A stretch of 64,000 bases of DNA from Blastocatellia bacterium (GCA_963765045.1 CAVXVF010000003.1:171488-235487); one strand, 5' to 3'. Shown: positions 36,348 to 61,554, counted from the stretch's first letter. A program made the numbers and translations. The notes: generated by a model not told the origin, from the sequence alone.

Positions 36348-37448
36348 ATGTCCAAAAAGAAAAGAAATGAGCAGAGTCTGAACCCGGCCAACAAAAAGCT
36401 TTCGGCGACAAAAGCGAATAAAGCCCTAATCAAGATCGGGCTGATTGTCGGAATATTGTTGTTCGTATTGGTCGGATTTGGAGCGTTCGTGAGCCGGCAA
36501 AACTCGACTGAAAACATTGCGTCGAGTTCCGCCAATCCACCCGCGCCATTGCCGACTCCGCAATACGCGGCAAACGCTCCAGCCAAGGAATTTTTGTACG
36601 CAGGCAGCAAATTACTGGCCGTATCTGAACCAGTTCAGCCCGCTCCGAATGACCTTGCCGTATGGCGGCTTTCGACCGGAGAGTGGTTCGTAATGGGAGA
36701 ATCCGGAGGCATCACTCAGCAAGTCTGGGGGGTGTCTACTGACAAACCTGCACCCGGCGATTTCGACGGCGACGGCAAGACCGATTTCTGCGTATTCCGG
36801 CCAAGCGAAGGCAAATGGTACATCGTACAATCGGGTACGAATACCTCTAATACACTCACTTTCGGCGTAAACGGAGACATCCCTGTTCCTGCGGATTTCG
36901 ATGGCGACAGCCGTACCGATTTGGCACTGTACCGGCCGAGCAATCAGACCTGGTACATCAAGCACATGGCCTCCGGCAATATCGTGACTCGCCAATATGG
37001 GAATAGCACCGACAAACCGCTGCCGAGCGATTTTGACGGCGACGGCAAAGCCGATATCGCCCTTTGGCGAAACAGCAACGCAACCTGGTATGTCTGGAAG
37101 AGCAGCACCAACTCGGGATCGAGCCTTGTGTGGGGCGCGAGCGGCGATAAACCGGTGCCCGGAGATTTCGACGGTGACGGCAAGACCGATCATGCCGTTT
37201 GGAAAAGCACTAACCTTTGGAGCATCCGCCGCAGTTCGAACGGCACGACAATGACCGCTACATGGGGCTTCCAGGCAAGCGATATTTCCGTTCAGGGCGA
37301 TTATGACCGGGACGGCAAATCCGACGTCGCCGTCTGGCGTCCGTCAAACGGCACCTGGTACATCGTTAAATCGAGCAACGGAACTATTCGCACCCAGGTC
37401 TGGGGCCAAAACGGAGACATCCCCGTCCCGACGCCGTACCGAAGATAG
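36348..37448 (+). CDS. Membrane-anchored FG-GAP/VCBS-repeat (beta-propeller-like) protein
   Basis: N-terminal TM (IKIGLIVGILLFVLVGFGAFV), then about six or seven ~44-aa repeats of D-K-P-x-P-G-D-F-D-G-D-G-K-T-D-x-x-x-[WFY]-R-P-S-x-x-x-W-Y-[IV]. Confidence 0.8.
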   Translation: MSKKKRNEQSLNPANKKLSATKANKALIKIGLIVGILLFVLVGFGAFVSRQNSTENIASSSANPPAPLPTPQYAANAPAKEFLYAGSKLLAVSEPVQPAPNDLAVWRLSTGEWFVMGESGGITQQVWGVSTDKPAPGDFDGDGKTDFCVFRPSEGKWYIVQSGTNTSNTLTFGVNGDIPVPADFDGDSRTDLALYRPSNQTWYIKHMASGNIVTRQYGNSTDKPLPSDFDGDGKADIALWRNSNATWYVWKSSTNSGSSLVWGASGDKPVPGDFDGDGKTDHAVWKSTNLWSIRRSSNGTTMTATWGFQASDISVQGDYDRDGKSDVAVWRPSNGTWYIVKSSNGTIRTQVWGQNGDIPVPTPYRR

Positions 37449-37459
37449 CGTCGCGTTTG

Positions 37460-37536
37460 TTCCTCTTGTTCGTTCTTGTTCTTCTTCATAAGTGGTTAAG
37501 ACTTAAATCCGACCACGGAACAAGATGAACAAGACC
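37460..37536 (+). repeat. Long imperfect hairpin element with conserved core agtggttaagacttaaatccgaccacgga (37491-37519)
   Basis: Core stem gtggt/accac. The flanks (cttgttc-rich on the left, gaacaag-rich on the right) are mutually complementary. The 29-nt core matches 49670-49698 at 27/29 positions in the same orientation. Confidence 0.7.
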
Positions 37537-37606
37537 GTAAAAGAAACAGAAAGAAGTTAAAAAAATTGCTCGTGGCGAATTAACCACAGCAAAACATTAT
37601 CTCAAA

Positions 37607-43105: not shown

Positions 43106-43539
43106 TTTCTAAGTCTAAATACTCGTCAAAAGATTTTATCCAAGATGTCGCCGTTGCAGCTTTGATTACGACGATGTGTATGCTGGCATTTTTGCGGCGG
43201 GATTATTTGTATGGATCCCAAGATTACGATGGTATCGTATCTGTGTTTTTTTATGTGGGAATTGGGCTAAAAATCATTTTTGTAATAGGCTCCCTTTATT
43301 TACTATTGAGGTTGCAATACCCACAGAGTTTAGTTGCCGGAATAGTTTTGGTCGGTTGCTGGCTGCTTGCTGAATGTTTCCCGAATTCCGTATCAGTTTT
43401 ATTCTTAAAAGAACTGAATGACGTTTTCGGGTATTTTGGGGGCGTATTTATTTACCCGATTTGGCGGTGGCAGAGGCTAACGAACACCAATGCGGAGGTC
43501 TTGGACGACAAACCCACTACTTTGAATTTGAATAACTAG
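43102..43539 (+). CDS. Putative immunity protein 1 (4-TM membrane protein)
   Basis: The ATG overlaps the rhs stop (ATGA). 145 aa with about 4 hydrophobic helices, AT-richer than the flanking sequence. Confidence 0.65.
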   Translation: MISKSKYSSKDFIQDVAVAALITTMCMLAFLRRDYLYGSQDYDGIVSVFFYVGIGLKIIFVIGSLYLLLRLQYPQSLVAGIVLVGCWLLAECFPNSVSVLFLKELNDVFGYFGGVFIYPIWRWQRLTNTNAEVLDDKPTTLNLNN

Positions 43540-43568
43540 AGTGCAGGGGATATGTGAAGGAGCGTTTG

Positions 43569-43680
43569 TATCCTCATTCGTTCAATCTCATCTAGGCTGA
43601 TGGCGTCGCTCGTGCGGTCGTAAAGCTTTGTTGTTCGGGACTAGCATGGGCGGCTATTTCCTGCTCGTAACTGTAAAAAC
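43569..43680 (-). pseudogene. 3' remnant of a tyrosine recombinase/integrase gene (frameshifted and 5'-truncated at the orphan rhs junction)
   Basis: The minus strand reads ..EQEIAAHASP (frame a), then, one missing base later, RTTKLYDRTSDAISLDEIERMRI (frame b). From memory, this matches the conserved C-terminus (..AAHESPRTTKLYDRT.D.I.LDE.ERI.I) of a family of site-specific integrases. Confidence 0.5.
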
Positions 43681-45060
43681 GACGAGACCGAGAGCGGTTT
43701 CCACAACAACGGGCAGTTGACAAAAGTTCAAACGGCGGCGAATGCCACATACGGAATACCGGAGACAATACAGAATTATCGTTACGACAAAATCGGACAG
43801 GTTACAAAGCATGTTCAGACCATCGGCAATCAGAGTTATCAGCTTGAGTATGGATACAACCTCGCCGGACAGTTGGTGAGCGAGAAGTATCCGAGCGGCA
43901 AGATCGTCAACATGACGGTCGATAATTTCGGAAGATTGCAAACTGTCGCCGACGCACAGCGGACTTATCTGAGCAGTGTCGGTTTCAACAATCAGGGTCT
44001 GCTGTCGCAGGTGAATCTCGGCAACGCAACGAGCGAAACTTTTTCGTACAATGACCGTTTTCAGATGACTTCCCAGAGCCTGAATCGCGGTTCGGAAGTT
44101 TTGCAAAAATATGATTATTCTTACGGCACGGTCGATCTGGCAACAGGAACGGTTAATACACAAACCAATAATGGTCAGCTTTCCAAAATAGAAGGTTTTA
44201 TCGGAGCAAACAAGCAGTGGTCGCAGCGGTTCGGTTACGACGAGCTTGGGCGCTTGAAGGAAGCGAGAGAGTACAAGCAGGGCACGAATACTCAACTAAC
44301 TTACAAACAGGTGTTCGACTTCGACCGCTTTGGGAATCTCTATCGAAAGAACGCAAGCAACCCAACCGCAGGGCAGCAGAACCCGCTTATATACACGCCG
44401 ATTGAGAATGCGGACATAGATAAAACTAAAAATCGTCTCACAACCGGAACAACTTACGACGATGCCGGACAGGTTGTGAATGATACGAAGTTTCGTTCGA
44501 TGAGTTTTGCCTACGACGCAAATGGCCGTCAGGTCAACTCTACGAACTCTATAAACTCTACGAACGCTCAAACAGTCTATGACGCACTTGGAAACAGAGT
44601 CGCCACGAAGATCAACGACATTTGGCAGTACATGGTCTATGACGCTTTCGGGAAATTGGTTGCTGAATACGGCACGGCGAGCGAAGGTCTCGGCGGTGTG
44701 AAGTACGTTCAGCAGGACTGGCAAGGCAGTGTCAGAACCGTGACAAATAACAACGGCTTCGTGGTCGCCCGAACGGATCACCAGGCATTCGGCGGCGAAG
44801 TCGGTTACGGAACCGGGCAACGCTCCGTCGAACAAGGCTACAACGTCGGTAAGGTTACAAAACAAGGCTACGGTTTAACCGAGAATGATCAAGGTTCTGG
44901 ACAGCAGCATACTTGGTTTAGGAAACTCGAAACCTCCGCCGGAAGATGGACAGGTCCCGATCCGTACAAGGGTTCAATGTCGCTTGGCAATCCACAGTCG
45001 TTTAATCGATATTCTTACGTTGAAAACCAGCCGACGAATTTTGTTGATCCAAGTGGATTA
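43681..45060 (+). repeat. rhs core copy within orphan cassette 1
   Basis: DETESGFHNNGQLTKVQTAANATYGIPETIQNYRYDKIGQVTKHVQ... parallels main-gene aa ~1207-1665. Confidence 0.9.
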
Positions 45061-45714
45061 CTCTACATCTTATATTGCACATATATTGGATACATGGCCG
45101 ATATGCCCGGTTTTCCAAGTGTGTATTCTTGCCATTTGGTGGAAATTGGCGGCGGCGGCATCGGTGGTCCTAGGGAGCCGCCTGTTCACGGCGGCGGTGT
45201 TGGCAGCGGCGGCAGAGAGACACCACCAGTCGATAGCGATTGTGAAAAATTTGCCAAGTTAGTTGGTGAAATCGCCAAGAGTGCTAAAAATGCCAAAGAT
45301 TTTGCGGATCAGATGGCTAAAAGATTTCTTGGCGTTAACGGAGCCTCATTGAGTGAATTACGCAGGGCGAATGAGGTTGGCGGTGGTGAATCGTTTGGTA
45401 GCTCGGGATTCAAAGAGCAATTTCAGGGGCCTGGCAATCAGGTGCGACACTTTACAGGAGGCCTGATCGGTGGTTACTTGTTTGGAGCAACGGGCGGCGA
45501 TTGGGGAATGTGGTTTGGGGAGGACGACCCAGAGGATATTGCGCTTAATGCGGTTAGCAGTGCTTTAGGAGCCAGAATAGTGGACCCTACGCCTGCGACG
45601 ACAAAGGAGGTTTCCGGTGGGTACAGAAGCGAAATGAGACGTATCGTAAATGTCCCTGCCAATCCTGGATATACTGATTTGGCGGATCGTATTAGGAAAC
45701 AAGTCTGTGAATAA
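43717..45714 (+). CDS. Orphan RHS C-terminal cassette 1 (core fragment plus 217-aa toxin tip 2); no canonical start
   Basis: The in-frame homology begins at 43681, just after a TAG at 43642. Only a TTG (43717) is available as a start. The core ends NQPTNFVDPSGL (Asp at 45046), then a unique tip contains ..GFKEQFQGPGNQVRHFTGGLIGGYLFGATGGDWGMWFGEDDPEDIALN... Confidence 0.8.
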   Translation: MTKVQTAANATYGIPETIQNYRYDKIGQVTKHVQTIGNQSYQLEYGYNLAGQLVSEKYPSGKIVNMTVDNFGRLQTVADAQRTYLSSVGFNNQGLLSQVNLGNATSETFSYNDRFQMTSQSLNRGSEVLQKYDYSYGTVDLATGTVNTQTNNGQLSKIEGFIGANKQWSQRFGYDELGRLKEAREYKQGTNTQLTYKQVFDFDRFGNLYRKNASNPTAGQQNPLIYTPIENADIDKTKNRLTTGTTYDDAGQVVNDTKFRSMSFAYDANGRQVNSTNSINSTNAQTVYDALGNRVATKINDIWQYMVYDAFGKLVAEYGTASEGLGGVKYVQQDWQGSVRTVTNNNGFVVARTDHQAFGGEVGYGTGQRSVEQGYNVGKVTKQGYGLTENDQGSGQQHTWFRKLETSAGRWTGPDPYKGSMSLGNPQSFNRYSYVENQPTNFVDPSGLLYILYCTYIGYMADMPGFPSVYSCHLVEIGGGGIGGPREPPVHGGGVGSGGRETPPVDSDCEKFAKLVGEIAKSAKNAKDFADQMAKRFLGVNGASLSELRRANEVGGGESFGSSGFKEQFQGPGNQVRHFTGGLIGGYLFGATGGDWGMWFGEDDPEDIALNAVSSALGARIVDPTPATTKEVSGGYRSEMRRIVNVPANPGYTDLADRIRKQVCE

Positions 45715-45786
45715 TCAAGGGCGAATTTTGCTTCGTTCCCGGTGTTGATATGCCAAATTTAGTGCAGTAATTCGTTCGAGGTGTTT

Positions 45787-46341
45787 ATGTTCGGGAAAAA
45801 ACTTTCAATCGTATTGTTCGGATGCTTGGTTTTTAGTTCTTGCGGCAAAGGCTACGACACTAAAAAGGTTGTTGAGTCTTGGGAGACAGGAAATCAACAG
45901 TTAAAAATCCGTGTTGCATCATATCCAGAAAATATCCATCTTCTTTATGGGGGAGCATATTATGTTTTTGAGTCATCTAGAAATGGCGAATGGGTAGAGA
46001 TTATGACTGTTAGGCATGATGATCTGACTCCTATTGACAAAAATGGCGTGAAATTCGTTAACGAAAATATTTGCTATGTTTATTCGGGTTCGGGGTTTGC
46101 TGTTACTACGGATGTTGGGAATACGTGGACTCTATGGGATGGTCGGGAACATAATTACTTGGATAAAGAGGTTGAATATGGCGTGATAACAAAGATAGAA
46201 ATCCGAAGCGATGGTCAGGGTGAAATGATCGTATGGGTATTTGCACCCAACAAGAATGATTGTCAAACGGTATTGACAAGCGACTACGGACAAACTTGGG
46301 TGAACGGTAATTTACTTGACAAAGGTAAATGTTCTCTCTAG
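45787..46341 (+). CDS. Putative immunity protein 2: lipoprotein with BNR/Asp-box motifs
   Basis: Lipobox VFSSCGKG and two Asp-box-like S/T-x-D-x-G-x-T-W motifs (TTDVGNTW, TSDYGQTW). Located directly after toxin tip 2. Confidence 0.6.
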   Translation: MFGKKLSIVLFGCLVFSSCGKGYDTKKVVESWETGNQQLKIRVASYPENIHLLYGGAYYVFESSRNGEWVEIMTVRHDDLTPIDKNGVKFVNENICYVYSGSGFAVTTDVGNTWTLWDGREHNYLDKEVEYGVITKIEIRSDGQGEMIVWVFAPNKNDCQTVLTSDYGQTWVNGNLLDKGKCSL

Positions 46342-48214
46342 TTTTGCGCGAAAAAAAACGCCTTGGATAGATGCACAGCAATACAATCTTGAGTACGGCT
46401 ACAATCTGGCCGGGCAATTGATTACGGAGAAATATCCTTCTGGAAAGATCGTCACAACGAGCTATGATGCGAACGGCAGATTGTCGGGCGTCGCCGATCC
46501 TTCTCGGACTTATCTGAGCGGTATGCAGTATTTGGGCAAGGGCAATTCGGTCAGCCAGATGACGCTTGGCAACGGAACGGTTGAGAACTATACGCTTAAC
46601 GACCGTTTTCAAATGACCGGACAGGAGTTGAAACGCGGCACCGAGGTTCTGCAAAAGTACAATTACGGTTATGGCGAGATCGACGGTTCGGGGAATCTTG
46701 TTACGACAAAAAATAACGGTCAGCTTGGAAGAATAGAAAGCTACATCGGCACGGCAAAGCAATCGACGCAGAAGTTTCTTTACGATCACATTGGCCGTTT
46801 GAAAGAATCGGCCGAATATCGCGGTGATAACAATAGTCTGACTTACAAGCAGAAGTTCGATTTTGACAGGTTTGGGAATCTTTATCGGAAAGCCGCGAGC
46901 AACCCAACGGCGGGACAGGCGAATCCATTGGCTTACACTCCGATTGAAGAGACGACGACACCGGGAACGGGCGATATCGAAAAGTCGACGAATCGATTCC
47001 GCACCGGCACGACGTATGACGATGCTGGGCAAGTTGTCGCGGATAATAAATTCCGTTCGATGAACTTTGCCTACGACGCGAATGGCCGTCAGGTCAACTC
47101 TACGAACTCTACAAACTCTACGAACGCTCAAACCGTCTATGATGCGAGCGGAAACAGAGTTGCGACAAAGATCAATAACATCTGGCAGTATATGATCTAC
47201 GACGCCTTCGGAAAACTTGTGGCCGAATACGGCGTAGCGTCAGAAGGCGTGGGCGGAGTAAAATATCTCCAGCAGGATTGGCAAGGCAGCGTGAGAACCG
47301 TAACAAACAATAATGGATTTGTCGTCGGAAGAACGGATCACCAAGCTTTTGGTAATGACGTGGGATACGGAGTCGGGCAACGCTCGGTCGAGCAGGGCTA
47401 TTCGGGTGGTAAAGCTACTCGACAGGGCTATGGATTGACCGAACGCGACGACGCGACGGGACAAGATCACACGTGGTTCAGAAAGAACGAAAACCTCGCC
47501 GGACGCTGGACAAGTCCCGATCCTTATAATGGCTCGATGTCCCTCGGCGACCCGCAGAGTTTCAACCGGTACAGTTATGTCCAAAGTGATCCAACGAATT
47601 TCGTTGATCCGAGTGGGTTGCAAATGGCAATTTGTTATATCGACGGATTCCAGGCAAACTGCAGCACGGCGTTTCACTTGGTGCAATCGGGTGGCGGCTA
47701 CGTCAGTTGGCACAGCGTCGATTGGTTGACGGTTGTCAACGAATACACCCTGATTGATGACCGCTGGACGCGTACTGGTCAATATCTTCATTTTAATCCT
47801 TTATACAATTTTAACCCAGAGGGCAATCTTGGTCCTCGTGGTGGTGGCGGCGGTAACAAAAATAATTCTGAAGATGATTTCTCGGATTGTCGAGATGAAG
47901 TCAGGGCGGAATTTATGTCGGATATATTTGCCGCAAGTGATAAATTTAATAAAGCTAATTCTGACCACATTCTGGATCCGGCATCTCTGAAAACTGCGGC
48001 CCTCGGAATCGTTGGTCTGGCGGGAGGTATTCTTTTCAGGTCTCCGTCGTCACTGTTGAGTGGCTTGGCTGCTTTGTCTTGGGTTCAGGGTGCTTCTTAC
48101 GTCAATTTATATACTCTAGCAAAAGATGTTTGGAAAGCGTATAGGAAAGAAAGAAAGCAGATGGCTAGATGCACACCGATTTTGATCAATAAAAGTAGAA
48201 GTGTTTCGGTATGA
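46316..48214 (+). CDS. Orphan RHS C-terminal cassette 2 (core fragment plus 197-aa toxin tip 3); no canonical start
   Basis: Homology to the main core starts ~46378 (YNLEYGYNLAGQLITEKYPSGKIV). The track ORF begins at a TTG that overlaps the preceding gene. The core ends SDPTNFVDPSGL (Asp at 47606), followed by a unique tip. Confidence 0.8.
   Translation: MTKVNVLSSFARKKTPWIDAQQYNLEYGYNLAGQLITEKYPSGKIVTTSYDANGRLSGVADPSRTYLSGMQYLGKGNSVSQMTLGNGTVENYTLNDRFQMTGQELKRGTEVLQKYNYGYGEIDGSGNLVTTKNNGQLGRIESYIGTAKQSTQKFLYDHIGRLKESAEYRGDNNSLTYKQKFDFDRFGNLYRKAASNPTAGQANPLAYTPIEETTTPGTGDIEKSTNRFRTGTTYDDAGQVVADNKFRSMNFAYDANGRQVNSTNSTNSTNAQTVYDASGNRVATKINNIWQYMIYDAFGKLVAEYGVASEGVGGVKYLQQDWQGSVRTVTNNNGFVVGRTDHQAFGNDVGYGVGQRSVEQGYSGGKATRQGYGLTERDDATGQDHTWFRKNENLAGRWTSPDPYNGSMSLGDPQSFNRYSYVQSDPTNFVDPSGLQMAICYIDGFQANCSTAFHLVQSGGGYVSWHSVDWLTVVNEYTLIDDRWTRTGQYLHFNPLYNFNPEGNLGPRGGGGGNKNNSEDDFSDCRDEVRAEFMSDIFAASDKFNKANSDHILDPASLKTAALGIVGLAGGILFRSPSSLLSGLAALSWVQGASYVNLYTLAKDVWKAYRKERKQMARCTPILINKSRSVSV
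46378..47620 (+). repeat. rhs core copy within orphan cassette 2
   Basis: More diverged than copy 1, but colinear through to DPSGL. Confidence 0.85.
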
Positions 48215-49986: not shown

Positions 49987-50604
49987 CTACCCGCTTTCCG
50001 GCCTTGATGTCTTAGGTCTGGCCGAAGATTTGGGTTTAGCTTTCTTCGCTGCCGGTTCGTGTTCTTTTGGCCGTGCCGACTTTTTGCTGTCTTCTTCTTT
50101 TTTTAGGCCAAACTCGGCCATCACATCCATCACTTTATCGAAGACCAAATAGGGCGAATTCATTACAAAAGAAACTGTTTCGCTGAGGGCTATTGCCTCA
50201 AGCTGGACCAGAGTTGCTATCTTTTTTTCCAATGGCAATTCGGCAAAATCCTTTTTGTATTGCTCGGTTTGCTCTTCTGTATTTGGTTCATCGGCGGCTT
50301 TGTCTTTTTTCTCAGTAGTCATAATAACTAAATCTCCAGCAGTTTGAATTTTGGCCTGACATGCAAGTCTTTCATTAGTCTTACGCCCGTGAGCCGAGAA
50401 ATGTTCTGTTTCGACCGCGGTCAACGGTGATAATTTGTCCGAGCCGCTAACGACTAAAAGCGAACAGAAATGGATGTCTTCAGCCTGCACGCAGTCTTCG
50501 TCAAATCTAATACCGAATCGCTTTGCGGCGTCCGCCAGATAGCTGCCGACCGCGACAATTCCCTCGCGACCTTCGCGCTCGAATGTAATTTGTGCCACTG
50601 ACAT
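49987..50604 (-). CDS. Ferredoxin-fold-like protein with incomplete Cys ligand set and Lys-rich tail
   Basis: The N-terminus ITFEREGREGIVAVGSYLADAAKRFGI..C.(8).C...RLACQAKI resembles plant-type 2Fe-2S ferredoxins, but only 3 Cys are present. Lies 16 nt downstream of fur. Confidence 0.45.
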   Translation of the reverse strand: MSVAQITFEREGREGIVAVGSYLADAAKRFGIRFDEDCVQAEDIHFCSLLVVSGSDKLSPLTAVETEHFSAHGRKTNERLACQAKIQTAGDLVIMTTEKKDKAADEPNTEEQTEQYKKDFAELPLEKKIATLVQLEAIALSETVSFVMNSPYLVFDKVMDVMAEFGLKKEEDSKKSARPKEHEPAAKKAKPKSSARPKTSRPESG

Positions 50605-50620
50605 AACCAATCCCTCTTGT

Positions 50621-51142
50621 TCAATTACCACTGACCGATCTCATTCGAACACGCGGCTGCGCACCGGATGGAGCACTCTGCGTTTCCATTCCCTTCTTTT
50701 GACAGTCCGAACATTCTCCCCATATTCGCAAACTGTGATGCGTCGGACGGAAGCCGAGTTTGTCCGCCATTTCATCCTGCATCGTTTCGATTCCCTGCGA
50801 AAAGAACTCGATAACCTTACCGCATCCGGTACAGATCATATGGTCGTGATGATCGTGGTTGTAATGATGCTCGTAATAGGTTTTGTTATCGCCGAACCGT
50901 ACTTCGCGTGCGAGCCCGGCTTCGGTCAACAATTTCAGTGTGCGGTAAACGGTCGTGTGCCCGACGGTCGGATCGTCTTTTTGTACAAGCCAATAGAGGT
51001 CTTCGCTCGTAAGGTGGTCCTCGATCCGAAGAAAGATGTCCATTATCAAGTCACGCTGAGCGGTGCGGCGAAGCCCCGCTTTCTGGATATGCTCCAGGAA
51101 GATTTCCCTCTCTTTCGTGAAGTCTTGCTTTTTCTTAGCCAT
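50621..51142 (-). CDS. fur: Fur family transcriptional regulator
   Basis: [41 protein letters not shown], ...CSDC. Confidence 0.88.
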
Positions 51143-51167
51143 ATTTCCTGACTTGTCTGAGCCCATT

Positions 51168-52054
51168 TTAGCATTTGACAGAGCGTAGCGCTAACTTTAT
51201 ACCTTCCCGAAGTTTCTGAACACTTTCGGACGGTTGCCCAACGCTTTCGGCAAGATCGAGTGACCGGCTGCCCAGCTCAAGATAGATGCGAATGATCTCA
51301 TCCGGAACATTTTTGGACAACGCAATCAAATGCCTTTCAAAAGCCGCGTCGTCCGCTCTGGCAAATGTGCCGGTCAAAGCCTTTGCATTGCTCTGATTTT
51401 CGAGATTCTCGACCGTGCTTTTTATCAACGGCATCAATATCCGCTTCGCCTCGTCTGGCCCAATTCCACATTTCGAAAGCGTTTCAGACGCAATGTCGAT
51501 CAATGCGACGAGATGGCCCGAAGCCGTCACCGCCGCCGCGTGATAAAGCGACTTAAACCTGGTTTCGATCGAAAACCCGTTGCCTCCTAGTTTTCCAACC
51601 ATATCTTTTGCCGCAGCCACGGCCTCATTTTGACCCTCGATACAGAAAAAGGCTCCAGCAAAGCGCTCGCTTCCGCGGATCGGATCGCTTATCGACACAA
51701 GCGGGTGCATCGACCCGGTCAAGCAGCCAGCATCGGCAAGGTCAGAAAGAATATCGGAGGAAAGCGATCCGCTTGCGTGAAAAACCAGCGGCCTTATTAC
51801 TTGTTTTTGAAGAAAGCCGAGAAGAAATTGCTTCGATGTCTGGATCTGCCGAGGTGATAAATATAGCGTTGGAAGCCAGATTTTGCAGATCATCGAAAGC
51901 AATCAAATTTGGCGAAGGTGAGATCAGTCCCGCGATCTCTTCCGGCACATTCGACCGGTATACTGAGATTCTCAACCTGATAACCTGCTCGCGAAAGAGC
52001 AAGTGCAAGCGCACCGCCGAGACGTCCGATTCCAACAATGGATACGCTTTGCAT
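51168..52054 (-). pseudogene. Rossmann-like/DUF2520 family protein with two frameshifts (~51955-51975 and ~51800-51825)
   Basis: Three frames join as follows: MQSVSIVGIGRLGGALALALSRAGYQVENL, then YRSNVPEEIAGLISPS..ITSADPDIEAISSRLS, then LQKQVIRPLVFHASGSL...LTGTFARADDAAFERHLIAL. The second shift is at an A5/T5 run. Confidence 0.75.
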
Positions 52055-52132: not shown

Positions 52133-55100
52133 TTAAATATTTACTGAAACGGCGTCATCGGCAAATTCGTCCAACAATCCGCCGGAGCTTGTATGAATAT
52201 CCGAACCCGATTCGTCTTTCTTAAATATTTCACGAAGAATTTTTAACTGAAGATCGCTAAAAGGCGGAATGTCTTTGCCTTTTTTCAATGAACTTAGCAA
52301 TTGCTTCGAAGCGTCGCTAAGTTCTTGATCGGCAGTTTCGTCCGATAGGAACTCGAGCGATCTGATCAGATCTTCACTGTTTTTGACTAAGGATTTACGG
52401 AAGGACTTCAAGCCCGAGCTAATTGTGTCATTGAGAGCTTTTGGCAAATTGGCGGAATAGGAACTCTTGTTCAGCGAGAACGTGCAAAGACAGAACGGAT
52501 GCCGGTCCAGGACCTGTCTGGTATCGACTCTGCAATCGAGTTCGGCAATCCGGCGGCGATATTCGTTCGCATTATTCGATACGGCTGCGTCAAAGATCGA
52601 CGTCTCTGAAAGCATGTCGAATTCCCACCACTCGTCACTCCGCAGCGTTTCATTCAATTGAGCTTTTGCCTCGGGAGCCTTCATTACAGCCGTGTGCCGC
52701 TCGTCGAAATAATCTGAAAATTCCTGCTTGAATTTCTCCCATACTTCGCTCAATTGGCGGTTGATGGAGTCGCTCGGTTGAGCATAAGCGGCATCGGTCA
52801 ACGCAAATATTGTTTCTCTTAATTGCTCGATATTCGGGTCCTGCGTTATTTCGCAAGCCGCCAGATAAGACCTGATCTCATCACGCAGCCTGGCACCCTT
52901 CGTAAAGCTCGAAAGAACCTGAAAGCCTGCCTCGCAAGCCTTAAACTCTGTTTCCGAATCGGAGAATGCATCGGCAATGCTGTTAAGACAATCTTCAAGC
53001 GGCATCGAACCAATAGATGCGCCTTCAATCGATTCGGCAACCGATCCAAACGTTTTCGAAATCCGTGCAGCAAGCTGCCAAATCCGAACGTTCAAAACAT
53101 CGTCGGGCAATTGTATGAATTGCTCGAGAAGCCGGGAATCATTCCACTTCTCTGTCCAATCGGCAAATGCTGCCTGCAAAGCTTCCCTGTCCTCGGCCCG
53201 ATCAAGCGATTTGAACTCGCCTACTTTTACGAACATGGCCGCCCAGCGCTTTAATTTCTTAGCGGAAATAACGCTTTCTATCGGCTTAGCGATCCCGACG
53301 ATGTCATCCCAAATAATCTTCAGATCGAGAGATCTGTGGTTAATGCGATTTCCGGAGGAGGTGACAAATTCGACCTGGCGTTGAGCGACCAGCGCCGTTA
53401 ATACAATCTGTTGAGCTTCGCGTACCAGCCCGACCGGAGCTTTGCTCATTTGAGCACAAACTGCATTTATGGCAACCGGCTCCGCTCCCTTGGCCGCGAC
53501 AAGACCTAGTAATTCTGCCACGATCGGCTGCGCGGCAACTTTTTCTACAGACTCAGGAACGAACGATGTTCCTTCGTGCCGGACCAGCCCAAGCGGAAAT
53601 GCGAAAGTCTGAGCCCGGCTTTGGACGTCTGGGAGGTCTTGGCGCGTTCCGTTATAAAGATCGGTGACGATCGATGCAACGTCGATATTATCGAGAGTTT
53701 TTGTAAAGTATGGATGTGCCGAATAGCGCGTCTCAAACAAGGGTTCGAGCATCGCCGAGAACAACTCTGACAATGTCGGGGCCGATCTTGCCTCTTCGGT
53801 AAAGTTATAATCGAATCCGTCGATCACCAGCTTGCCGTCATCCAGAAAAACACGGTTTACTATTTTTTCTACGGCGATCGAATGTGCGTGGACCGATGCT
53901 CGAATCTGATCGCTAAACTTTTCCTGGAGATCGGCGTTCGAGCTTAACGCATGATAGCTGCGTATCTTGTCGATTTCATCCGGGCGAAGAACGTCCGGCT
54001 TCCAAATGACCCGTGCCACGTCTCCTGTTGTTTCCGGTTGGATAAATGCTCCGTTTTGCAGATCGATGATCACTTCCCAATCCGTGGCATCGAATGCCGA
54101 AGCCGGAGTTTCTGTTACCGCCGCTTCAAGTGTTGAATTCCACAAAATGCGTCCGCGACGAATTCCACCACGCCAAACGATCTCGGTGTCCACGCAGATT
54201 TCGTCAGATACTTCTGAACCAGACGCTGAACTCGCAAAGCGTTCCTGAAACACTCGCCGCACGATCCCCGGAACCGTGTCATCCGAAATATCTTTTAAGG
54301 CTTCGGCAAGTGCATTGTTAAGGTTTTCCTTGCTGCTAACCTTAAAGCAGTAACGAGATTCGACACCAGCCTCGGAAAATACGTTGAAATCCTCCGGCAG
54401 CGCTTCCGCAAAAGTTTTGAGGAGATCCTCGACGGTTTTTCCGGCTTTGGCTGGATCAGATTCTTCGAAGATCAACACCGACGCACAAATATCGTTGGCG
54501 GTCGCTCCTTGTCCATCGAGCGAGAGCAGCAGCAGAGCCTTTAATATTAGCTTCGCCTGCAGACGCTGCATTACCGGTATCTTGCTGACGACACTTGCGT
54601 TTAGCTTGTCATACGCGGCGAACGCCTCACTGAGATCTTCGATCTTTCGCAGACCGGCCTCGGCATTGTCGTAAACTTCGTCAAGCGCGATCAGAGAGTT
54701 CGATGGACGGCCCATGATCCGTTCGCCCGCCTCGGACGCAAAACCGAGCAAGGCAAAATCATGCACGTACAGCCTGACGTAAGGTGCAATTTCCAGAATC
54801 GCGGGGTGCAGCGGGTAAAGCGAGGTAAATTTTTGCTCGCTCCAACGGAAACTCGGCAGGACCTCCCGAAAATAAGCATAAATATCATGCAGAACCGGCT
54901 GCATCTGGTTATGTTTCGGGAAAATATGCGAGTTTACGACCTTGTAAAGATGTGCCTGATCGAGGTAGTCGATCGAAAAAGACCGGACGATGGCAGAGTT
55001 TGAACCGTCGGCTCCGGCAATGTCGTCATCAAGGGCCACTCCGACAAAAACGTTCAACTTCTTTGCCGCCTCGCCGATCTCGCTTAAAAACTCACCGTCA

Positions 55101-55636
55101 TCGCGGGCAACGCGTGCTCCACGCTCGAATGCCGTGTCGATCAATAATATGAAAGCACTTTCACCGCATTTTTCAGCGGCGACTGTCAAAATGTTTTCGT
55201 ATGACGTTTCATCCTGCGACGATTCAATGCCAAATGCTTTGGAAATGGCGGACTTCAGCTCTTCGATAAGCGTTGGGTGGGTTCCGCGACGCAAATAAGC
55301 AACCGAGTAATGCCGCCTCTGGAGTCTCTGTGCGCTAAATGCCACGTGTGACTCGGAAACGCGACTGCGATGCTCCGGGTTTGCTGCAATTGCCCCAAGT
55401 GTTGCCAGAAAATGACTTTTACCGACACCGCGATAGCCAGCAAGAGCATAAGCGGCACCTTTACCGCTTTGGACAGATGAAATTCCGTCAAGCCACTTAG
55501 CCATCAGGTCAGATGTTGCATCGGTAAAATGATAATTGCTTAACGTTTCCGCTGGATCAACAATGAAATCACGTATGCTGTTATACGGTCGAACCTCGAC
55601 TATATCTTTTACTTTTTCCTGAATTCGTTTCATCAA
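52133..55636 (-). CDS. Large stand-alone P-loop ATPase, BrxC/PglY-like (DUF499/DUF6079-type) architecture
   Basis: 1167 aa. Walker A GYRGVGKSHF, Walker B-like AFILLIDTAF, an LYPLHPAILE motif, long helical middle and C-terminal regions, and a CRVDTRQVLDRHPFCLCTF Cys cluster near the C-terminus. Confidence 0.6.
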   Translation of the reverse strand: MMKRIQEKVKDIVEVRPYNSIRDFIVDPAETLSNYHFTDATSDLMAKWLDGISSVQSGKGAAYALAGYRGVGKSHFLATLGAIAANPEHRSRVSESHVAFSAQRLQRRHYSVAYLRRGTHPTLIEELKSAISKAFGIESSQDETSYENILTVAAEKCGESAFILLIDTAFERGARVARDDGEFLSEIGEAAKKLNVFVGVALDDDIAGADGSNSAIVRSFSIDYLDQAHLYKVVNSHIFPKHNQMQPVLHDIYAYFREVLPSFRWSEQKFTSLYPLHPAILEIAPYVRLYVHDFALLGFASEAGERIMGRPSNSLIALDEVYDNAEAGLRKIEDLSEAFAAYDKLNASVVSKIPVMQRLQAKLILKALLLLSLDGQGATANDICASVLIFEESDPAKAGKTVEDLLKTFAEALPEDFNVFSEAGVESRYCFKVSSKENLNNALAEALKDISDDTVPGIVRRVFQERFASSASGSEVSDEICVDTEIVWRGGIRRGRILWNSTLEAAVTETPASAFDATDWEVIIDLQNGAFIQPETTGDVARVIWKPDVLRPDEIDKIRSYHALSSNADLQEKFSDQIRASVHAHSIAVEKIVNRVFLDDGKLVIDGFDYNFTEEARSAPTLSELFSAMLEPLFETRYSAHPYFTKTLDNIDVASIVTDLYNGTRQDLPDVQSRAQTFAFPLGLVRHEGTSFVPESVEKVAAQPIVAELLGLVAAKGAEPVAINAVCAQMSKAPVGLVREAQQIVLTALVAQRQVEFVTSSGNRINHRSLDLKIIWDDIVGIAKPIESVISAKKLKRWAAMFVKVGEFKSLDRAEDREALQAAFADWTEKWNDSRLLEQFIQLPDDVLNVRIWQLAARISKTFGSVAESIEGASIGSMPLEDCLNSIADAFSDSETEFKACEAGFQVLSSFTKGARLRDEIRSYLAACEITQDPNIEQLRETIFALTDAAYAQPSDSINRQLSEVWEKFKQEFSDYFDERHTAVMKAPEAKAQLNETLRSDEWWEFDMLSETSIFDAAVSNNANEYRRRIAELDCRVDTRQVLDRHPFCLCTFSLNKSSYSANLPKALNDTISSGLKSFRKSLVKNSEDLIRSLEFLSDETADQELSDASKQLLSSLKKGKDIPPFSDLQLKILREIFKKDESGSDIHTSSGGLLDEFADDAVSVNI

Positions 55637-55922
55637 TTATCGAAGTAAGGCTGGAAACCAGCAGCCGTTTGCTGGGCCGCTAGTTGGGAACTTTTGACGC
55701 GGAAGCGAGTGCTTTCACAAGCTTTGCAGTAACACTTTAACAATTTTTACGCTTAAACAAAAGGTTTTTCCTTACTTTTTTTACAGAATGATATTGTGTA
55801 ACAAAGATTTTTTTACCAATCACAACTATTTTATTGGTGTCTGCATCATAGATTATGTTGATTTTACCGCGTAACAGGTTATGATTAGACAGTTCCCTTT
55901 TGATTATTTTCGGAGGCAATTA

Positions 55923-57107
55923 ATGCGTAAGAATTCAATTCGCAAATCTAGTGCGTTCCTGCTTATTTTAGCTCTTTACTTAACTTCGGTTTCCTTTTTG
56001 CAGACTGGCGTAGCGGCACAGACCACCAGCGATAAAAAGGCTCCCGCTAAAAACGCCAAGACTAAGGCCACAAAAGCTGAACCGACGCCGACACCTCAGC
56101 CCGCGGGCCCGAAGCCGCTTGCCGTTAAGGAAGATCCATCCCAGATCGGTAAACGAAAAATTAATAATGGCTCTGACAAACTTTTCGGCTGGCTTGGCGG
56201 TTCGCAGGAGAAGGAGATAGCACTTGGCCGTCAGCTTGCCGCACAGGTCGAACAGCAGGCGAAGATGGTCGAAGATCCGATTGTTACGGAATATATCAAT
56301 CGCATCGGCCAAAATGTAGTGCTGCACTCGGACGCCAAAGTGCCGTTCACTATCAAAGTGATCGACAGCGACGAGGTCAATGCATTTGCATTGCCCGGCG
56401 GATTCTTTTTTGTACATAAGGGATTGATTCTCGCGGCTGACAACGAAGCTGAGTTGGCCGGTGTGATGGCCCATGAAATTGCCCACGTCGCGGCTCGTCA
56501 TGCGATGGAAAATCAGGGCAAAGGCACGCTTATTAATTACGGAGCTTTGGCCGGCATAATTTTTGGCGGGCCGATTGTGAGTACCATTTTGCAGAACGGC
56601 GGTGGAATAATGGCCGGTCTCGCGGGGCTGAAATTCACGCGCGGAGCCGAAGTGGAAGCGGACAGCCTCGGTGTGCAATATTTGTACGCTTCTGGCTACG
56701 ATCCGACTGCTATGTCGACGATGTTCGAGAAATTAGCGTCGAAAAACAAGAAAAAGCCGGGTACCATCCAAAAATTGTTCTCTTCGCACCCGCAATCGAT
56801 TGATCGCCGCGACTCAAGCCTTGCTTTAGTGTCTCGTTTTGCAGAAAAGGAAGAGTACGTTATCAGCACCTCTGAATTCAATCGCGTGAAAGGCCATCTG
56901 TTGAAAATCACGAACGCAAAGGCCGGAATCACGACGGACTTTGACGAGGAAGACAATGCAAAGCCGACGCTCAAGAAACGTCAGCCGGATGCAGTCGATG
57001 GCGACTCGAGCGATTCCGACGGCTCGTCCAGCTCGTCGTCTGATGGGCCGCCCAAACTAAAGAAGCGCGATATCGAACCGGAGCCTTCACCGACTCCGAA
57101 ACCGTAA
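55923..57107 (+). CDS. M48 family metallopeptidase (BepA/Ste24-like), secreted
   Basis: Signal peptide, HEIAHVAARH (HExxH), and a downstream E..AD ligand region. Low-complexity acidic/Ser tail. Confidence 0.85.
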   Translation: MRKNSIRKSSAFLLILALYLTSVSFLQTGVAAQTTSDKKAPAKNAKTKATKAEPTPTPQPAGPKPLAVKEDPSQIGKRKINNGSDKLFGWLGGSQEKEIALGRQLAAQVEQQAKMVEDPIVTEYINRIGQNVVLHSDAKVPFTIKVIDSDEVNAFALPGGFFFVHKGLILAADNEAELAGVMAHEIAHVAARHAMENQGKGTLINYGALAGIIFGGPIVSTILQNGGGIMAGLAGLKFTRGAEVEADSLGVQYLYASGYDPTAMSTMFEKLASKNKKKPGTIQKLFSSHPQSIDRRDSSLALVSRFAEKEEYVISTSEFNRVKGHLLKITNAKAGITTDFDEEDNAKPTLKKRQPDAVDGDSSDSDGSSSSSSDGPPKLKKRDIEPEPSPTPKP

Positions 57108-60890: not shown

Positions 60891-61554
60891 TCAAACCCAG
60901 ACCGTCCCTTTTTCGATAAGCTCTTTGACCGATTCTGTCGCTGTTCCTTTTCCATAGACCGCAGAACCGGCAACCGCGATCTCAACACCGGCTTCGATCA
61001 CTTCGAGAATGTTCTCCCCATCGATTCCACCGTCAATCTCAATTCTTGTAGCAAGCCCGCGATCGTCGATCATCCTTCTCAACCGCCGGACTTTATCCAG
61101 CGATGTAGGAATAAACGCCTGACCGCCAAAGCCCGGATTGACCGACATTATCAAAACAAAATCCGCGTACGGCAATGCTTCTTCAAGCGAACCAAGCGGC
61201 GTCGCCGGGTTGATAGCAATGCCGGCCTTGGCTCCCGCGTCTCGAATCGCGGAGAGCGTTCTGTGCAAATGAGCATCAGCTTCGACATGGACTGAAACCA
61301 TGTCTGCTCCCGCTTTTACAAATTCCGACTGCGTATTGGCCGGGATTGGCGATCATTAAGTGACAATCGATCGTCAATCTTGTCGCTTTTCTTAACGATT
61401 TGACCACCGGCAGACCGATCGTGATATTCGGAACGAAGTGGCCGTCCATCACGTCAACGTGCAGGATCGTCGCTCCGCCAAGCTCTACCGCCTTAATCTC
61501 CTCGGCTAATCGGGCAAAATCCGCCGACAGGATCGAAGGTGCAATTTCAAACAT
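60891..61554 (-). pseudogene. rpe: Ribulose-phosphate 3-epimerase with a single extra G (~61325)
   Basis: [44 protein letters not shown], then (shift) [36 protein letters not shown]. On the minus strand gtcggaattt should read gtc gaa ttt. This is very likely a sequencing indel. Confidence 0.85.

What the first reader, a model, noticed from the sequence alone, without database searches (positions are those of the whole stretch)
52133..55636. Orphan 1167-aa BrxC/PglY-like P-loop ATPase with no BREX partners
The size, the N-terminal layout (a short region IVEVRPYNSIRDFIVDPAETLSNYHFTDATSDL, then Walker A GYRGVGKSHF, then Walker B-like AFILLIDTAF), the LYPLHP motif and the very long helical C-terminal two-thirds with a Cys cluster (CRVDTRQVLDRHPFCLCTF) all resemble the large ATPases of BREX-type phage-defence loci (DUF499/DUF6079-type). 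However, the window contains no methyltransferase, PglZ phosphatase, BrxL/Lon or BrxA/B gene. The neighbours are a DUF2520-like gene, fur and an M48 peptidase. This could be a single-gene defence or sensing NTPase, or a housekeeping relative of BrxC with unknown function.
Basis: inference. Interest (0 to 1): 0.65.

Follow-up and report, generated by a model that had tools for sequence, protein, structure and literature searches.

The report
Vertically inherited BrxC-like ATPase, no BREX
This gene encodes a full-length relative of BrxC, the core ATPase of the BREX phage-defence system, but in soil Acidobacteriota it is a strongly conserved, vertically inherited chromosomal gene among housekeeping genes with no BREX partners nearby, so it most likely has a cellular role rather than being a mobile defence gene.

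Summary
The ORF is real. It lies on the minus strand at 52133-55636 and encodes 1166 aa from the ATG at 55633. All quoted motifs are present. It is a full-length homologue of BREX BrxC and is closest to the type-3/DUF6079 form: Pfam PF19557 scores 58 bits, hhalign against a plasmid BREX-3 BrxC gives 99.5% over 1097 columns, and the top Foldseek hit is the BrxC crystal structure 9zll.

It does not look like a BREX or defence-island gene. The window and more than 90 related loci contain no PglZ, PglX or BrxL. Relatives occur in at least 238 species-representative genomes; every one that carries a taxon name is from Acidobacteriota, mostly Pyrinomonadaceae. Synteny is fixed: a divergent M48 peptidase in 64/67 loci and a downstream DUF2520 gene in 64/72. 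dN/dS is about 0.10.

The Walker A motif and the Walker B Asp are invariant, but the catalytic Walker B Glu is absent in all 40 diverse members. A His plus three-Cys cluster in the C-terminal helical region is invariant and is shared with BREX-3 BrxC. In four deep clades the gene overlaps or abuts a DUF2520 Rossmann-protein gene.

My best reading is an ATP-binding, hydrolysis-poor DNA-scaffold protein with a cellular role. It is a new variant of a known kind, of moderate interest.

The parts
52133..55636 (-). Complete ORF of the BrxC-like (DUF6079) ATPase. The likely start is the ATG at 55633 (1166 aa) and the stop codon is 52133-52135.
54239..55573 (-). Residues 21-465: ORC/Cdc6-type AAA+ core with a helical insert after strand 2, then the lid/helical bundle and the first winged helix.
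   Evidence: AF2 model with pLDDT 85.8. Foldseek top hits are 9zll BrxC N-domain (E 1e-8), then Orc1/Cdc6. The Pfam PF19557 match covers residues 31-393.
55415..55438 (-). Walker A motif G66-Y-R-G-V-G-K72-S73.
   Evidence: G66, G69, G71 and K72 are invariant in 40/40 diverse family members.
55133..55153 (-). Walker B strand F161-ILLID166-T167. The Asp is invariant and the catalytic Glu is replaced by Thr.
   Evidence: D166 is present in 40/40 members. Position 167 is T/G/S/D/N/A and never E. It aligns to the BrxC 'VDE' motif in hhalign. BrxC type 1 has an invariant D266-E267.
54509..54958 (-). Residues 226-375: the most constrained segment (lid/helical bundle, including LYPLHP at 54803-54820).
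   Evidence: 83% mean identity in A1. dN/dS is 0.008-0.015. P274, H276 and P277 are invariant in 40/40. The motif aligns to BrxC 'NYPFVP'.
53234..54238 (-). Residues 466-800: a beta-rich alpha+beta module, helical linkers and the second winged helix. This corresponds to the BrxC DNA-binding region.
   Evidence: AF2 secondary structure. hhalign collinearity with BrxC type 1 (715-831 vs 797-915; 39-852 vs 33-917) and with BREX-3 BrxC. Residues 466-550 are the fastest-evolving part (dN/dS 0.2-0.3).
52226..53233 (-). Residues 801-1136: long all-helical C-terminal region. I read it as a coiled-coil arm by analogy with BrxC.
   Evidence: AF2 predicts long helices from 791 to 1139. PADLOC BrxC-PglY model PDLC02482 matches residues 890-1096. 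The match to BREX-3 BrxC extends to residue 1194 of the family profile. BrxC is described as ending in a coiled coil with a small apex subdomain.
52484..52534 (-). Cys cluster C1034-x13-C1048-x-C1050, in a loop with a short helix between two long helices. Together with H980 (52694-52696) it forms a putative C3H zinc site, which I interpret as the apex of the arm.
   Evidence: H980, C1034, C1048 and C1050 are invariant in 40/40 members. The same Y-x3-H ... C-x13-C-x2-C-x-F signature is present in plasmid BREX-3 BrxC.
51168..52054 (-). Downstream DUF2520 (Rossmann-like NAD(P)-binding) gene and conserved operon partner. In this window it is split over three reading frames.
   Evidence: Pfam. The frame splits are shown. 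The gene is co-directional and adjacent in 64/72 species loci. It overlaps the ATPase gene in the distant clades L088-L091.
50621..51166 (-). Fur-family regulator gene, tightly packed after the DUF2520 gene.
49987..50631 (-). Conserved 214-aa protein with weak 2Fe-2S ferredoxin-like matches. It overlaps the end of fur.
55881..57107 (+). Divergently transcribed M48 (BepA-like) metallopeptidase gene, the most constant neighbour. The true start is probably near 55923.
   Evidence: Pfam and NCBIfam. Divergent and within 1.2 kb in 64/67 species loci. tblastn places the start.
55637..55880 (.). Intergenic region between the ATPase and M48 genes, with sequence blocks conserved among orthologous loci. 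They look like two divergent promoters.
   Evidence: Alignment of 23 intergenic regions. A TTGATT-N16-TATGAT match faces M48.

Best explanation
The gene encodes a lineage-wide, vertically inherited paralogue of the BREX core ATPase BrxC, closest to the type-3/DUF6079 form, that works outside any BREX system.

Shown:
- It keeps the whole BrxC body plan: an ORC/Cdc6-type AAA+ domain, a winged helix, an alpha+beta module, a second winged helix, and a long helical C-terminal region containing a His+Cys3 cluster.
- It keeps an intact nucleotide-binding P-loop and the Mg-binding Walker B Asp.
- It lacks the catalytic Walker B Glu in every family member examined.
- It is under strong purifying selection in a fixed housekeeping neighbourhood.

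Inferred:
- It behaves like the hydrolysis-deficient BrxC(E269Q) mutant, which retains ATP-dependent DNA binding and forms ATP-bound dimers and partner complexes. In this reading, ATP binding drives self-association and double-stranded DNA binding through the winged-helix and alpha+beta modules, with very slow turnover. That makes it a nucleotide-gated switch or scaffold, not a motor.
- The invariant C3H cluster binds zinc and stabilises or pairs the helical arms, in the manner of a Rad50 zinc hook.
- The extremely constrained lid segment (residues 226-375) is a partner or oligomer interface.
- The partner is a cellular protein rather than BrxB-PglZ. The best candidate is the translationally coupled DUF2520 Rossmann protein.
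- The output is a chromosome- or DNA-associated cellular function, not phage exclusion by a mobile defence island.
For: Homology and architecture:
- PF19557 scores 58.2 bits against a cut-off of 23.
- PADLOC BrxC-PglY models hit both the N- and C-terminal parts collinearly.
- hhalign of the 40-sequence family profile against BREX-3 BrxC gives 99.5% probability, E 2.6e-23, 1097 columns. Against a type-1 BrxC profile it gives 76.5% over 708 collinear columns.
- The AF2 model (pLDDT 85.8) has the BrxC N-domain crystal structure 9zll as its best Foldseek hit (E 1e-8), ahead of Orc1/Cdc6.

Motifs: Walker A, D166, H980, C1034, C1048 and C1050 are invariant in 40/40 members. Position 167 is never Glu.

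Not BREX or mobile:
- There is no PglZ, PglX or BrxL in the window or in the gene lists and ORFs examined for related loci.
- At least 238 species-representative genomes carry a relative, and all those that carry a taxon name are Acidobacteriota.
- M48 is the divergent neighbour in 64/67 loci and DUF2520 lies downstream in 64/72.
- Identity co-varies with that of the neighbours.
- dN/dS is 0.10 overall, 0.01 for residues 226-375, and no domain exceeds 0.31.
- There are no plasmid relatives, and no neighbour has a convincing PADLOC match.

DUF2520 coupling: the genes overlap in clades only 25-36% identical to the window protein, where the rest of the context differs.

Biochemical analogy: BrxC binds dsDNA in an ATP-dependent manner without needing hydrolysis, and the E->Q mutant forms ATP-bound dimers and partner complexes (PMC13326643).
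Against: - No experiment exists for any family member. DNA binding, zinc binding, oligomerisation and any partnership with DUF2520 are all inferred.
- An invariant acidic residue at position 203 (end of strand 4), or E170, could substitute as the catalytic base, so hydrolysis may not be lost.
- The BrxC E->Q mutants themselves keep some residual ATPase activity.
- DUF2520 is missing next to the gene in 8/72 Pyrinomonadaceae-type loci and in two deep clades. Co-transcription may therefore reflect genome stasis rather than a physical partnership.
- From memory and unverified here, DUF2520 proteins include the ketopantoate reductase PanG. That would make the DUF2520 gene an ordinary metabolic neighbour.
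- PglZ or PglX encoded elsewhere in these genomes could not be excluded with the tools available.
- Vertical inheritance does not by itself exclude an immune role.
Confidence: 0.5

Rival explanations
1. It is a fixed, minimal BREX-derived immune or sensor module. In this reading a BrxC-type sensor became a permanent chromosomal resident of Acidobacteriota and still detects foreign DNA. It would signal through partners encoded next to it (DUF2520, M48) or elsewhere in the genome (an unlinked PglZ, PglX or nuclease).
For: There is full-length homology to a protein known only from defence systems. The alpha+beta module (residues 466-550), which contributes to DNA binding in BrxC and is reported to be hypervariable across BREX subtypes, is also the fastest-evolving part here (dN/dS 0.2-0.3). 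The BREX survey describes other BrxC/DUF6079-containing non-canonical systems.
Against: - The protein carries no recognisable effector domain, and no neighbour matches a PADLOC model at a convincing level.
- Distribution is lineage-wide and syntenic rather than patchy.
- There are no plasmid relatives.
- dN/dS is well below 1 in every domain.
- The neighbourhoods are housekeeping genes and differ between deep clades: fur, rpe and rsmB in one; PBP1A and MutS in another; haem biosynthesis genes in a third.
- The catalytic Glu conserved in BrxC is absent throughout the family. In BrxC, Walker B E->Q mutants have sharply reduced ATPase activity.
Confidence: 0.2
2. It is a decaying remnant of an ancestral BREX-3 locus, an orphaned and functionless BrxC left behind after loss of the other genes.
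For: The BREX partners are absent, the Walker B Glu is lost, and the adjacent DUF2520 gene is frameshifted in this window.
Against: - Intact ORFs of 1150-1290 aa persist from 99% down to about 20% identity in hundreds of species.
- dN/dS is 0.10 overall and 0.01 in the lid segment.
- Twenty-one residues are invariant across 40 diverse members.
- The frameshifts also hit rpe, so they are probably assembly indels.
Confidence: 0.02
3. It is a generic STAND/AAA_16-type signalling ATPase, or an ORC/Cdc6-like replication factor, and resembles BrxC only in the P-loop domain.
For: There is a weak AAA_16 match. Orc1/Cdc6, DnaA and clamp-loader structures are among the Foldseek hits. In some genomes the gene lies near dnaB or uvrD.
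Against: Homology to BREX-3 BrxC runs the full length, including the C-terminal helical region and its His/Cys signature. The BrxC structure outranks the ORC structures. Proximity to replication genes is not conserved.
Confidence: 0.03

Closest known systems
BREX type 3 BrxC (Pfam PF19557 DUF6079 / BrxC-PglY_N), e.g. WP_092891896.1 on Roseicitreum antarcticum plasmid pRA04
   Same: It has the same length class (1241 vs 1166 aa) and is collinear over 1097 profile columns (hhalign 99.5%). It shares Walker A GxxGxGKSH, the Walker B Asp, the [LF]-[YF]-P-x-H-P motif, and the C-terminal Y-x3-H ... C-x13-C-x(1-2)-C-x-F signature.
   Different: - The BREX-3 protein scores 1953 bits on PF19557, against 58 bits here.
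- It has the Walker B 'DE' pair, where this family has D-[TGSDNA].
- It sits in a BrxF - BrxC - (RNA-binding domain protein) - methyltransferase - helicase - PglZ operon on a plasmid. The window gene sits among chromosomal housekeeping genes and is inherited vertically.
BREX type 1 BrxC (E. coli HS WP_001019654.1; Acinetobacter BrxC structures 9zll/9zdx)
   Same: The N-terminal ~570 residues have the same fold: 9zll is the top Foldseek hit, E 1e-8, target-normalised TM 0.46. The profile alignment is collinear over 708 columns, mapping Walker A, Walker B and the YPxxP motif. The domain order matches: AAA+, wHTH, alpha+beta, wHTH, then a long helical C-terminal region.
   Different: - The Pfam type-1 domain models BREX_BrxC_4th, _wHTH and _helical hit E. 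coli BrxC but not this protein.
- No NCBIfam BrxC model matches.
- The catalytic Glu (E267/E269) is absent.
- The Arg-finger columns are not conserved across the family.
- There is no BrxA, BrxB, PglX, PglZ or BrxL.
Orc1/Cdc6 initiators (e.g. 2qby, 2v1u)
   Same: They share the AAA+ plus winged-helix fold of the first ~450 residues.
   Different: They rank below BrxC in Foldseek. They have no alpha+beta module and no long helical C-terminal extension. Sequence identity is 12-14%.
Rad50 / SMC-type zinc-hook coiled-coil proteins (analogy only)
   Same: They have long helical arms with a Cys-rich element at the turn that could pair the arms through a metal. This follows the analogy drawn for the BrxC apex in bioRxiv 10.1101/2025.10.09.681413.
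   Different: They use a different ATPase superfamily (ABC vs AAA+). There is no sequence or fold match here, and zinc binding is untested.

Membership tests
Pfam PF19557 (DUF6079 / BrxC-PglY_N) | Score above the curated gathering threshold | tested here: met
   The score is 58.2 bits against a cut-off of 23, E 3.9e-16. Only residues 31-393 match, out of a 1238-position model. Distant family members score 45-106 bits.
BrxC (BREX core ATPase) | ORC/Cdc6-clade AAA+ N-domain with an intact Walker A motif | tested here: met
   GxxGxGK[ST] is invariant in 40/40 members. The top Foldseek hit is BrxC 9zll, followed by Orc1/Cdc6.
BrxC (BREX core ATPase) | Walker B hhhhDE with the catalytic Glu (E269 in Acinetobacter, E267 in E. 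coli) | tested here: not met
   The aligned position is T167 here (20/20 in close orthologues) and T/G/S/D/N/A across 40 diverse members, never Glu. BrxC type 1 has an invariant D266-E267 and BREX-3 BrxC has 'VVDEF'.
BrxC (BREX core ATPase) | Trans-acting Arg-finger residues (K326/R330 in Acinetobacter) | tested here: inconclusive
   The aligned columns are A214 and S218. The neighbouring R217 is R/K in 17/20 close orthologues but R in only 14/40 family-wide. The alignment is not reliable to within one residue.
BrxC (BREX core ATPase) | Full architecture: AAA+, wHTH, alpha+beta, wHTH, then a long coiled coil with a small apex subdomain | tested here: met
   hhalign against BREX-3 BrxC covers 1097 columns at 99.5% probability. 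The AF2 secondary structure shows the same order of elements, matching the published description. That the C-terminal helices form a coiled coil is inferred, not measured.
BrxC (BREX core ATPase) | Matches to the curated type-1 BrxC models (Pfam BREX_BrxC_4th, _wHTH, _helical; NCBIfam BrxC) | tested here: not met
   There are no hits at E<=1. The positive control, E. coli BrxC, hits all three Pfam models.
BREX system (any type) | Locus also encodes PglZ plus a PglX-type methyltransferase (or the PAPS-reductase set in type 4) | tested here: not met
   None is present in the 64-kb window. None appears in the gene lists or ORFs examined for related loci, which have flanks of up to 10 kb. Unlinked copies elsewhere in these genomes could not be checked.
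Defence-island / mobile gene | Patchy distribution, variable context, presence on mobile elements, rapid evolution | tested here: not met
   At least 238 species genomes within one phylum carry a relative. Synteny is fixed. No plasmid matches. dN/dS is 0.10.
DUF499 ATPases of BREX-related (BR) systems | A DUF499 profile match, a C-terminal RRM/wHTH region instead of a coiled coil, and an adjacent methyltransferase and helicase | tested here: not met
   There is no DUF499 hit. The C-terminal region is all-helical. No methyltransferase or helicase gene is adjacent.
SspC (Ssp phosphorothioation system) | A full-length SspC profile match with adjacent sspABD genes | tested here: not met
   Only P-loop-region matches were found, at E ~2e-4 over residues 21-107. 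No ssp genes are nearby.

The most novel reading that the evidence does not exclude
This would be the first BrxC-family protein with a cellular, non-defence role. In this reading an Acidobacteriota-wide, ATP-gated and hydrolysis-poor DNA scaffold pairs through a zinc site in its helical arms and works with a DUF2520 NAD(P)-binding partner. It would be either a domesticated BREX-3 BrxC or a descendant of the cellular ancestor from which BREX recruited its core ATPase.
Probability: 0.35. Interest if true: 0.7.

Novelty: new variant of a known kind. Interest (0 to 1): 0.5.

Why it matters
BrxC is the least understood core component of BREX, and the BREX mechanism itself is still unresolved. This family is a natural version of BrxC that has no PglZ or PglX nearby, lacks the Walker B Glu, and has still been kept under strong constraint for the whole history of a bacterial phylum. 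It would show what the BrxC scaffold can do on its own.

It also bears on where defence systems get their parts, whether by domestication of a defence gene or by recruitment of a cellular one. On the practical side, it warns annotation pipelines that a 'DUF6079 family protein' or a PADLOC BrxC hit in Acidobacteriota is not evidence of a BREX system.

Tried and rejected
- **PDB sequence searches:** neither the single protein nor the profile found anything.
- **First AF2 model:** built from 20 close sequences, it was poor in residues 225-312 and gave only ORC hits. It was superseded by the 40-sequence model.
- **hhalign against a single E. coli BrxC sequence:** this gave only a weak winged-helix match. 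Profiles and a BREX-3 sequence were needed.
- **Metagenome scan with the broad alignment A2:** A3 worked but returned only 7 loci.
- **tblastn of the window protein against plasmids:** nothing found.
- **Operator search in the M48/ATPase intergenic region:** I looked for a Fur or LexA box and found only promoter-like conserved blocks.
- **PanG and DUF2520:** I tried to verify from the literature that PanG ketopantoate reductase belongs to DUF2520, but the paper is not held. That link stays an unverified recollection.
- **Pseudogene or relic reading:** considered and rejected on the selection data.
- **Replication-factor reading:** prompted by dnaB and uvrD neighbours in L080, and rejected because that context is not conserved.
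- **DUF2520 frameshifts in the window:** I did not take these as evidence of decay, because rpe is also split.


Full report
**Observation.** The ORF exists at 52133-55636 but on the minus strand. It opens with TTG followed immediately by ATG. Starting from the ATG (55633) gives 1166 aa, the length of a 99%-identical protein from a Pyrinomonadaceae MAG. The neighbours are as stated. Downstream on the same strand are a DUF2520 gene, a Fur-family gene, a 214-aa protein with weak ferredoxin-like matches, and a TPR protein. Upstream and divergent is an M48 (BepA-like) peptidase, followed by TPR, YfiO/BamD-like, rpe, PASTA and rsmB genes. Every ORF of 500 aa or more in the window was assigned by Pfam to something other than PglZ, PglX or BrxL.

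**What the protein is.**
- Pfam places it in PF19557 (DUF6079, now named BrxC-PglY_N) at 58 bits against a cut-off of 23, but only over residues 31-393.
- PADLOC BrxC-PglY models match the N-terminal region and, separately, residues 890-1096.
- NCBIfam has no match.
- A control run showed that the local PF19557 model is in effect a full-length BREX type-3 BrxC model. It gives 1953 bits on the BrxC of a plasmid BREX-3 operon. E. coli type-1 BrxC instead hits BREX_BrxC_4th, _wHTH and _helical, none of which match the window protein.
- A 40-sequence profile of the window protein's family aligns to that BREX-3 BrxC with 99.5% probability (E 2.6e-23) over 1097 columns, essentially end to end.
- The same profile aligns to a type-1 BrxC profile with 76.5% probability over 708 collinear columns. 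That alignment maps Walker A, Walker B and the LYPLHP/NYPFVP motif onto each other.
- An AlphaFold2 model built on the 40-sequence alignment has mean pLDDT 85.8.
- Its best PDB match is the Acinetobacter BrxC N-domain crystal structure 9zll (E 1e-8, 586 columns, target-normalised TM 0.46), ahead of archaeal Orc1/Cdc6.
- The predicted order of elements is: AAA+ with a helical insert after strand 2, lid bundle, winged helix, beta-rich alpha+beta module, second winged helix, then about 340 residues of long helices with a small non-helical element between two of them. This matches the published BrxC architecture (bioRxiv 10.1101/2025.10.09.681413).

**Where the family occurs and how it evolves.** A word-indexed search found 1196 homologues. 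The best 120 are all 1035-1191 aa long and 50-99% identical, and those that carry names come from Pyrinomonadaceae or Acidobacteriota MAGs. An exhaustive profile search of 1.84 billion representatives found only 703 hits. Full-length members form a continuum down to about 21% identity. The named members of the most distant clades are also Acidobacteriota.

A scan of one genome per GTDB species found relatives in 238 genomes. In the 80 loci fetched:
- the M48 gene is divergent and within 1.2 kb in 64 of the 67 loci that have enough flank;
- a co-directional DUF2520 gene lies within 1.5 kb downstream in 64 of 72;
- in many loci the whole stretch fmt-rsmB-PASTA-rpe-yfiO-TPR-M48 | ATPase-DUF2520-fur-x-TPR-mscS-mntH is kept.

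The ATPase's identity to the window copy rises and falls together with that of its neighbours, and it evolves about as fast as RsmB. Against orthologues 95%, 90% and 86% identical, dN/dS is 0.10 overall, 0.008-0.015 for residues 226-375, and at most 0.31 for the alpha+beta insert. There is no plasmid relative. No neighbour matches a PADLOC model, apart from one marginal TPR hit.

**Deeper clades.** Clades only 25-36% identical to the window protein sit in quite different neighbourhoods: haem biosynthesis genes, NDH-2, or ribosomal protein genes. They still have a DUF2520 gene immediately downstream, overlapping the ATPase gene by 4-47 nt. One of them also keeps the divergent M48 gene. The most BrxC-like clade (about 21% identical; PADLOC BrxC E 6.5e-27) instead sits between PBP1A and a conserved 198-aa protein with a signal-peptide-like N-terminus, with MutS upstream. 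No locus examined shows BREX genes.

**Motifs.** Across the 40 diverse members the invariant residues are G66, G69, G71 and K72 (Walker A), D166 (Walker B Asp), P274/H276/P277, F298, D322, K365, W487, P641, P733/G735, W797, F890, H980, C1034, C1048 and C1050.

- *Walker B.* The residue after the Walker B Asp is the catalytic Glu in type-1 and type-3 BrxC. Here it is Thr (20/20 in close orthologues). Family-wide it is T, G, S, D, N or A, and never Glu. The five Asp cases are the clade closest to BREX.
- *Possible substitute.* Position 203, at the end of strand 4, is always acidic.
- *Arg finger.* The columns aligned to the BrxC Arg fingers are not conserved, although the neighbouring R217 is R or K in 17/20 close orthologues.
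- *His/Cys signature.* The signature (Y/F-x3-H ... C-x13-C-x-C-x-F) lies in the loop and short helix between two long helices. It is also present in BREX-3 BrxC as YVSLH ... C-x13-CPHC-NF. It is therefore an inherited feature of this branch of BrxC, not an innovation. E. coli type-1 BrxC lacks it.

**Mechanism.** The following steps are shown:
- an intact nucleotide- and Mg-binding site;
- a complete BrxC body plan;
- loss of the canonical catalytic Glu;
- strong purifying selection;
- fixed non-defence context;
- operon-like coupling to DUF2520.

The remaining steps are inferred from BrxC biochemistry (PMC13326643). BrxC binds dsDNA in an ATP-dependent way through its winged-helix and alpha+beta modules, and hydrolysis is not needed for this. 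ATP sits at a subunit interface and drives dimer or oligomer formation. The E269Q mutant forms ATP-bound dimers and complexes with BrxB-PglZ.

A protein that naturally lacks that Glu should therefore favour a long-lived, ATP-bound, assembled and DNA-bound state, acting as a switch or scaffold rather than a motor. I propose that the C3H cluster binds zinc and stabilises or pairs the helical arms. I also propose that the ultra-conserved lid segment (226-375) is the interface for self-association or for a cellular partner, with the DUF2520 Rossmann protein as the leading candidate. What the assembly does on DNA is not determined by any data here.

**Rivals.**
- *A fixed BREX-derived immune sensor* remains possible (about 0.2). 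The family is known only from defence, and the DNA-binding insert is the fastest-evolving part. Against it: there is no effector, no defence neighbour, no patchiness and no positive selection.
- *A decaying relic* is excluded by conservation and dN/dS.
- *A generic STAND or ORC-like ATPase* is excluded by the full-length alignment to BrxC.

**Comparison with known families and novelty.** The protein is a member of the DUF6079/BrxC superfamily, by profile, by fold and by full-length alignment. It fails three defining features of a BREX BrxC: the Walker B Glu, the curated BrxC models, and linkage to PglZ and PglX. It also fails every criterion of a defence-island gene.

The comprehensive 2025 BREX survey anchors on BrxC and PglZ neighbourhoods and does not mention Acidobacteria or orphan BrxC genes. 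A literature search for BrxC together with Acidobacteria found nothing relevant.

I therefore class it as a new variant of a known kind: a vertically inherited, BREX-less, Glu-less BrxC paralogue family confined, as far as these searches show, to Acidobacteriota. Interest is moderate (0.5). It is a surprising context for a BREX core protein and a potentially useful natural experiment for BrxC function. It has no experimental handle yet, and its cellular role is unknown.

**Caveats.**
- Most related sequences are MAGs, and taxon labels are the depositors' own.
- Flanks of 8-10 kb, and less in short contigs, cannot exclude unlinked BREX genes.
- Residue-level motif mapping rests on profile alignments at 12-16% identity.
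- Zinc binding, DNA binding, the coiled-coil geometry and any DUF2520 partnership are inferences.

Noticed in passing
window 36348-48214 (+): An FG-GAP protein and an 1832-aa RHS-repeat protein are followed by two further RHS C-terminal cassettes (43717-45714, 46316-48214), each with small ORFs after it. In orthologous loci the TPR gene is followed directly by mscS-cNMP and mntH, so this ~12-kb polymorphic-toxin-like block looks like an insertion into otherwise conserved synteny.
   Followed up: partly
window 51168-52054 (-) and 60894-61554 (-): The DUF2520 gene is split over three reading frames and rpe over two, relative to intact orthologues. Because rpe is also hit, assembly indel errors are more likely than real pseudogenes, but this cannot be decided here.
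   Followed up: partly
window 55637-55880: The M48/ATPase intergenic region has sequence blocks conserved across orthologues down to ~50% protein identity: AAATCAAC..TATGATGCA..AAAGTTGCGA and GAAAAACCTTTTGTTT..AAAATTGTTAAAGTAT. They look like two divergent promoters. No Fur- or LexA-type palindrome was evident.
   Followed up: partly
window 49987-50631 (-): A conserved 214-aa protein overlaps the end of fur and has weak 2Fe-2S ferredoxin-like NCBIfam matches. DUF2520-fur-this gene are packed with 1-nt to 11-nt spacings or overlaps, which suggests one operon.
   Followed up: no
L093-L098 (e.g. L097 5711-12400): In the most BrxC-like Acidobacteriota clade, the ATPase gene is flanked at 2-4 nt spacing by PBP1A upstream and by a conserved 198-aa protein with a signal-peptide-like N-terminus downstream. 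This trio is kept down to 38-48% ATPase identity.
   Followed up: partly
L100 (plasmid NZ_CP061499.1) 9578-22973: This is a complete BREX type-3 operon: BrxF, DUF6079 BrxC, an RNA-binding domain protein, a methyltransferase, a helicase and PglZ. It lies next to WYL, WGR, toprim and strawberry-notch genes. Its BrxC carries the same His/Cys3 C-terminal signature.
   Followed up: partly
Pfam PF19557 (database observation): In the local Pfam copy, the full-length DUF6079 model scores 1953 bits on BREX-3 BrxC but does not hit E. coli type-1 BrxC at E<=0.01. A 'DUF6079' label therefore means 'type-3-like BrxC' rather than BrxC in general.
   Followed up: yes
L068 and L071: Two contigs of the same MAG (JTS-RE26) each carry a copy of the M48-ATPase-DUF2520-fur block. 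This could be strain heterogeneity or bin contamination, or a real duplication.
   Followed up: no
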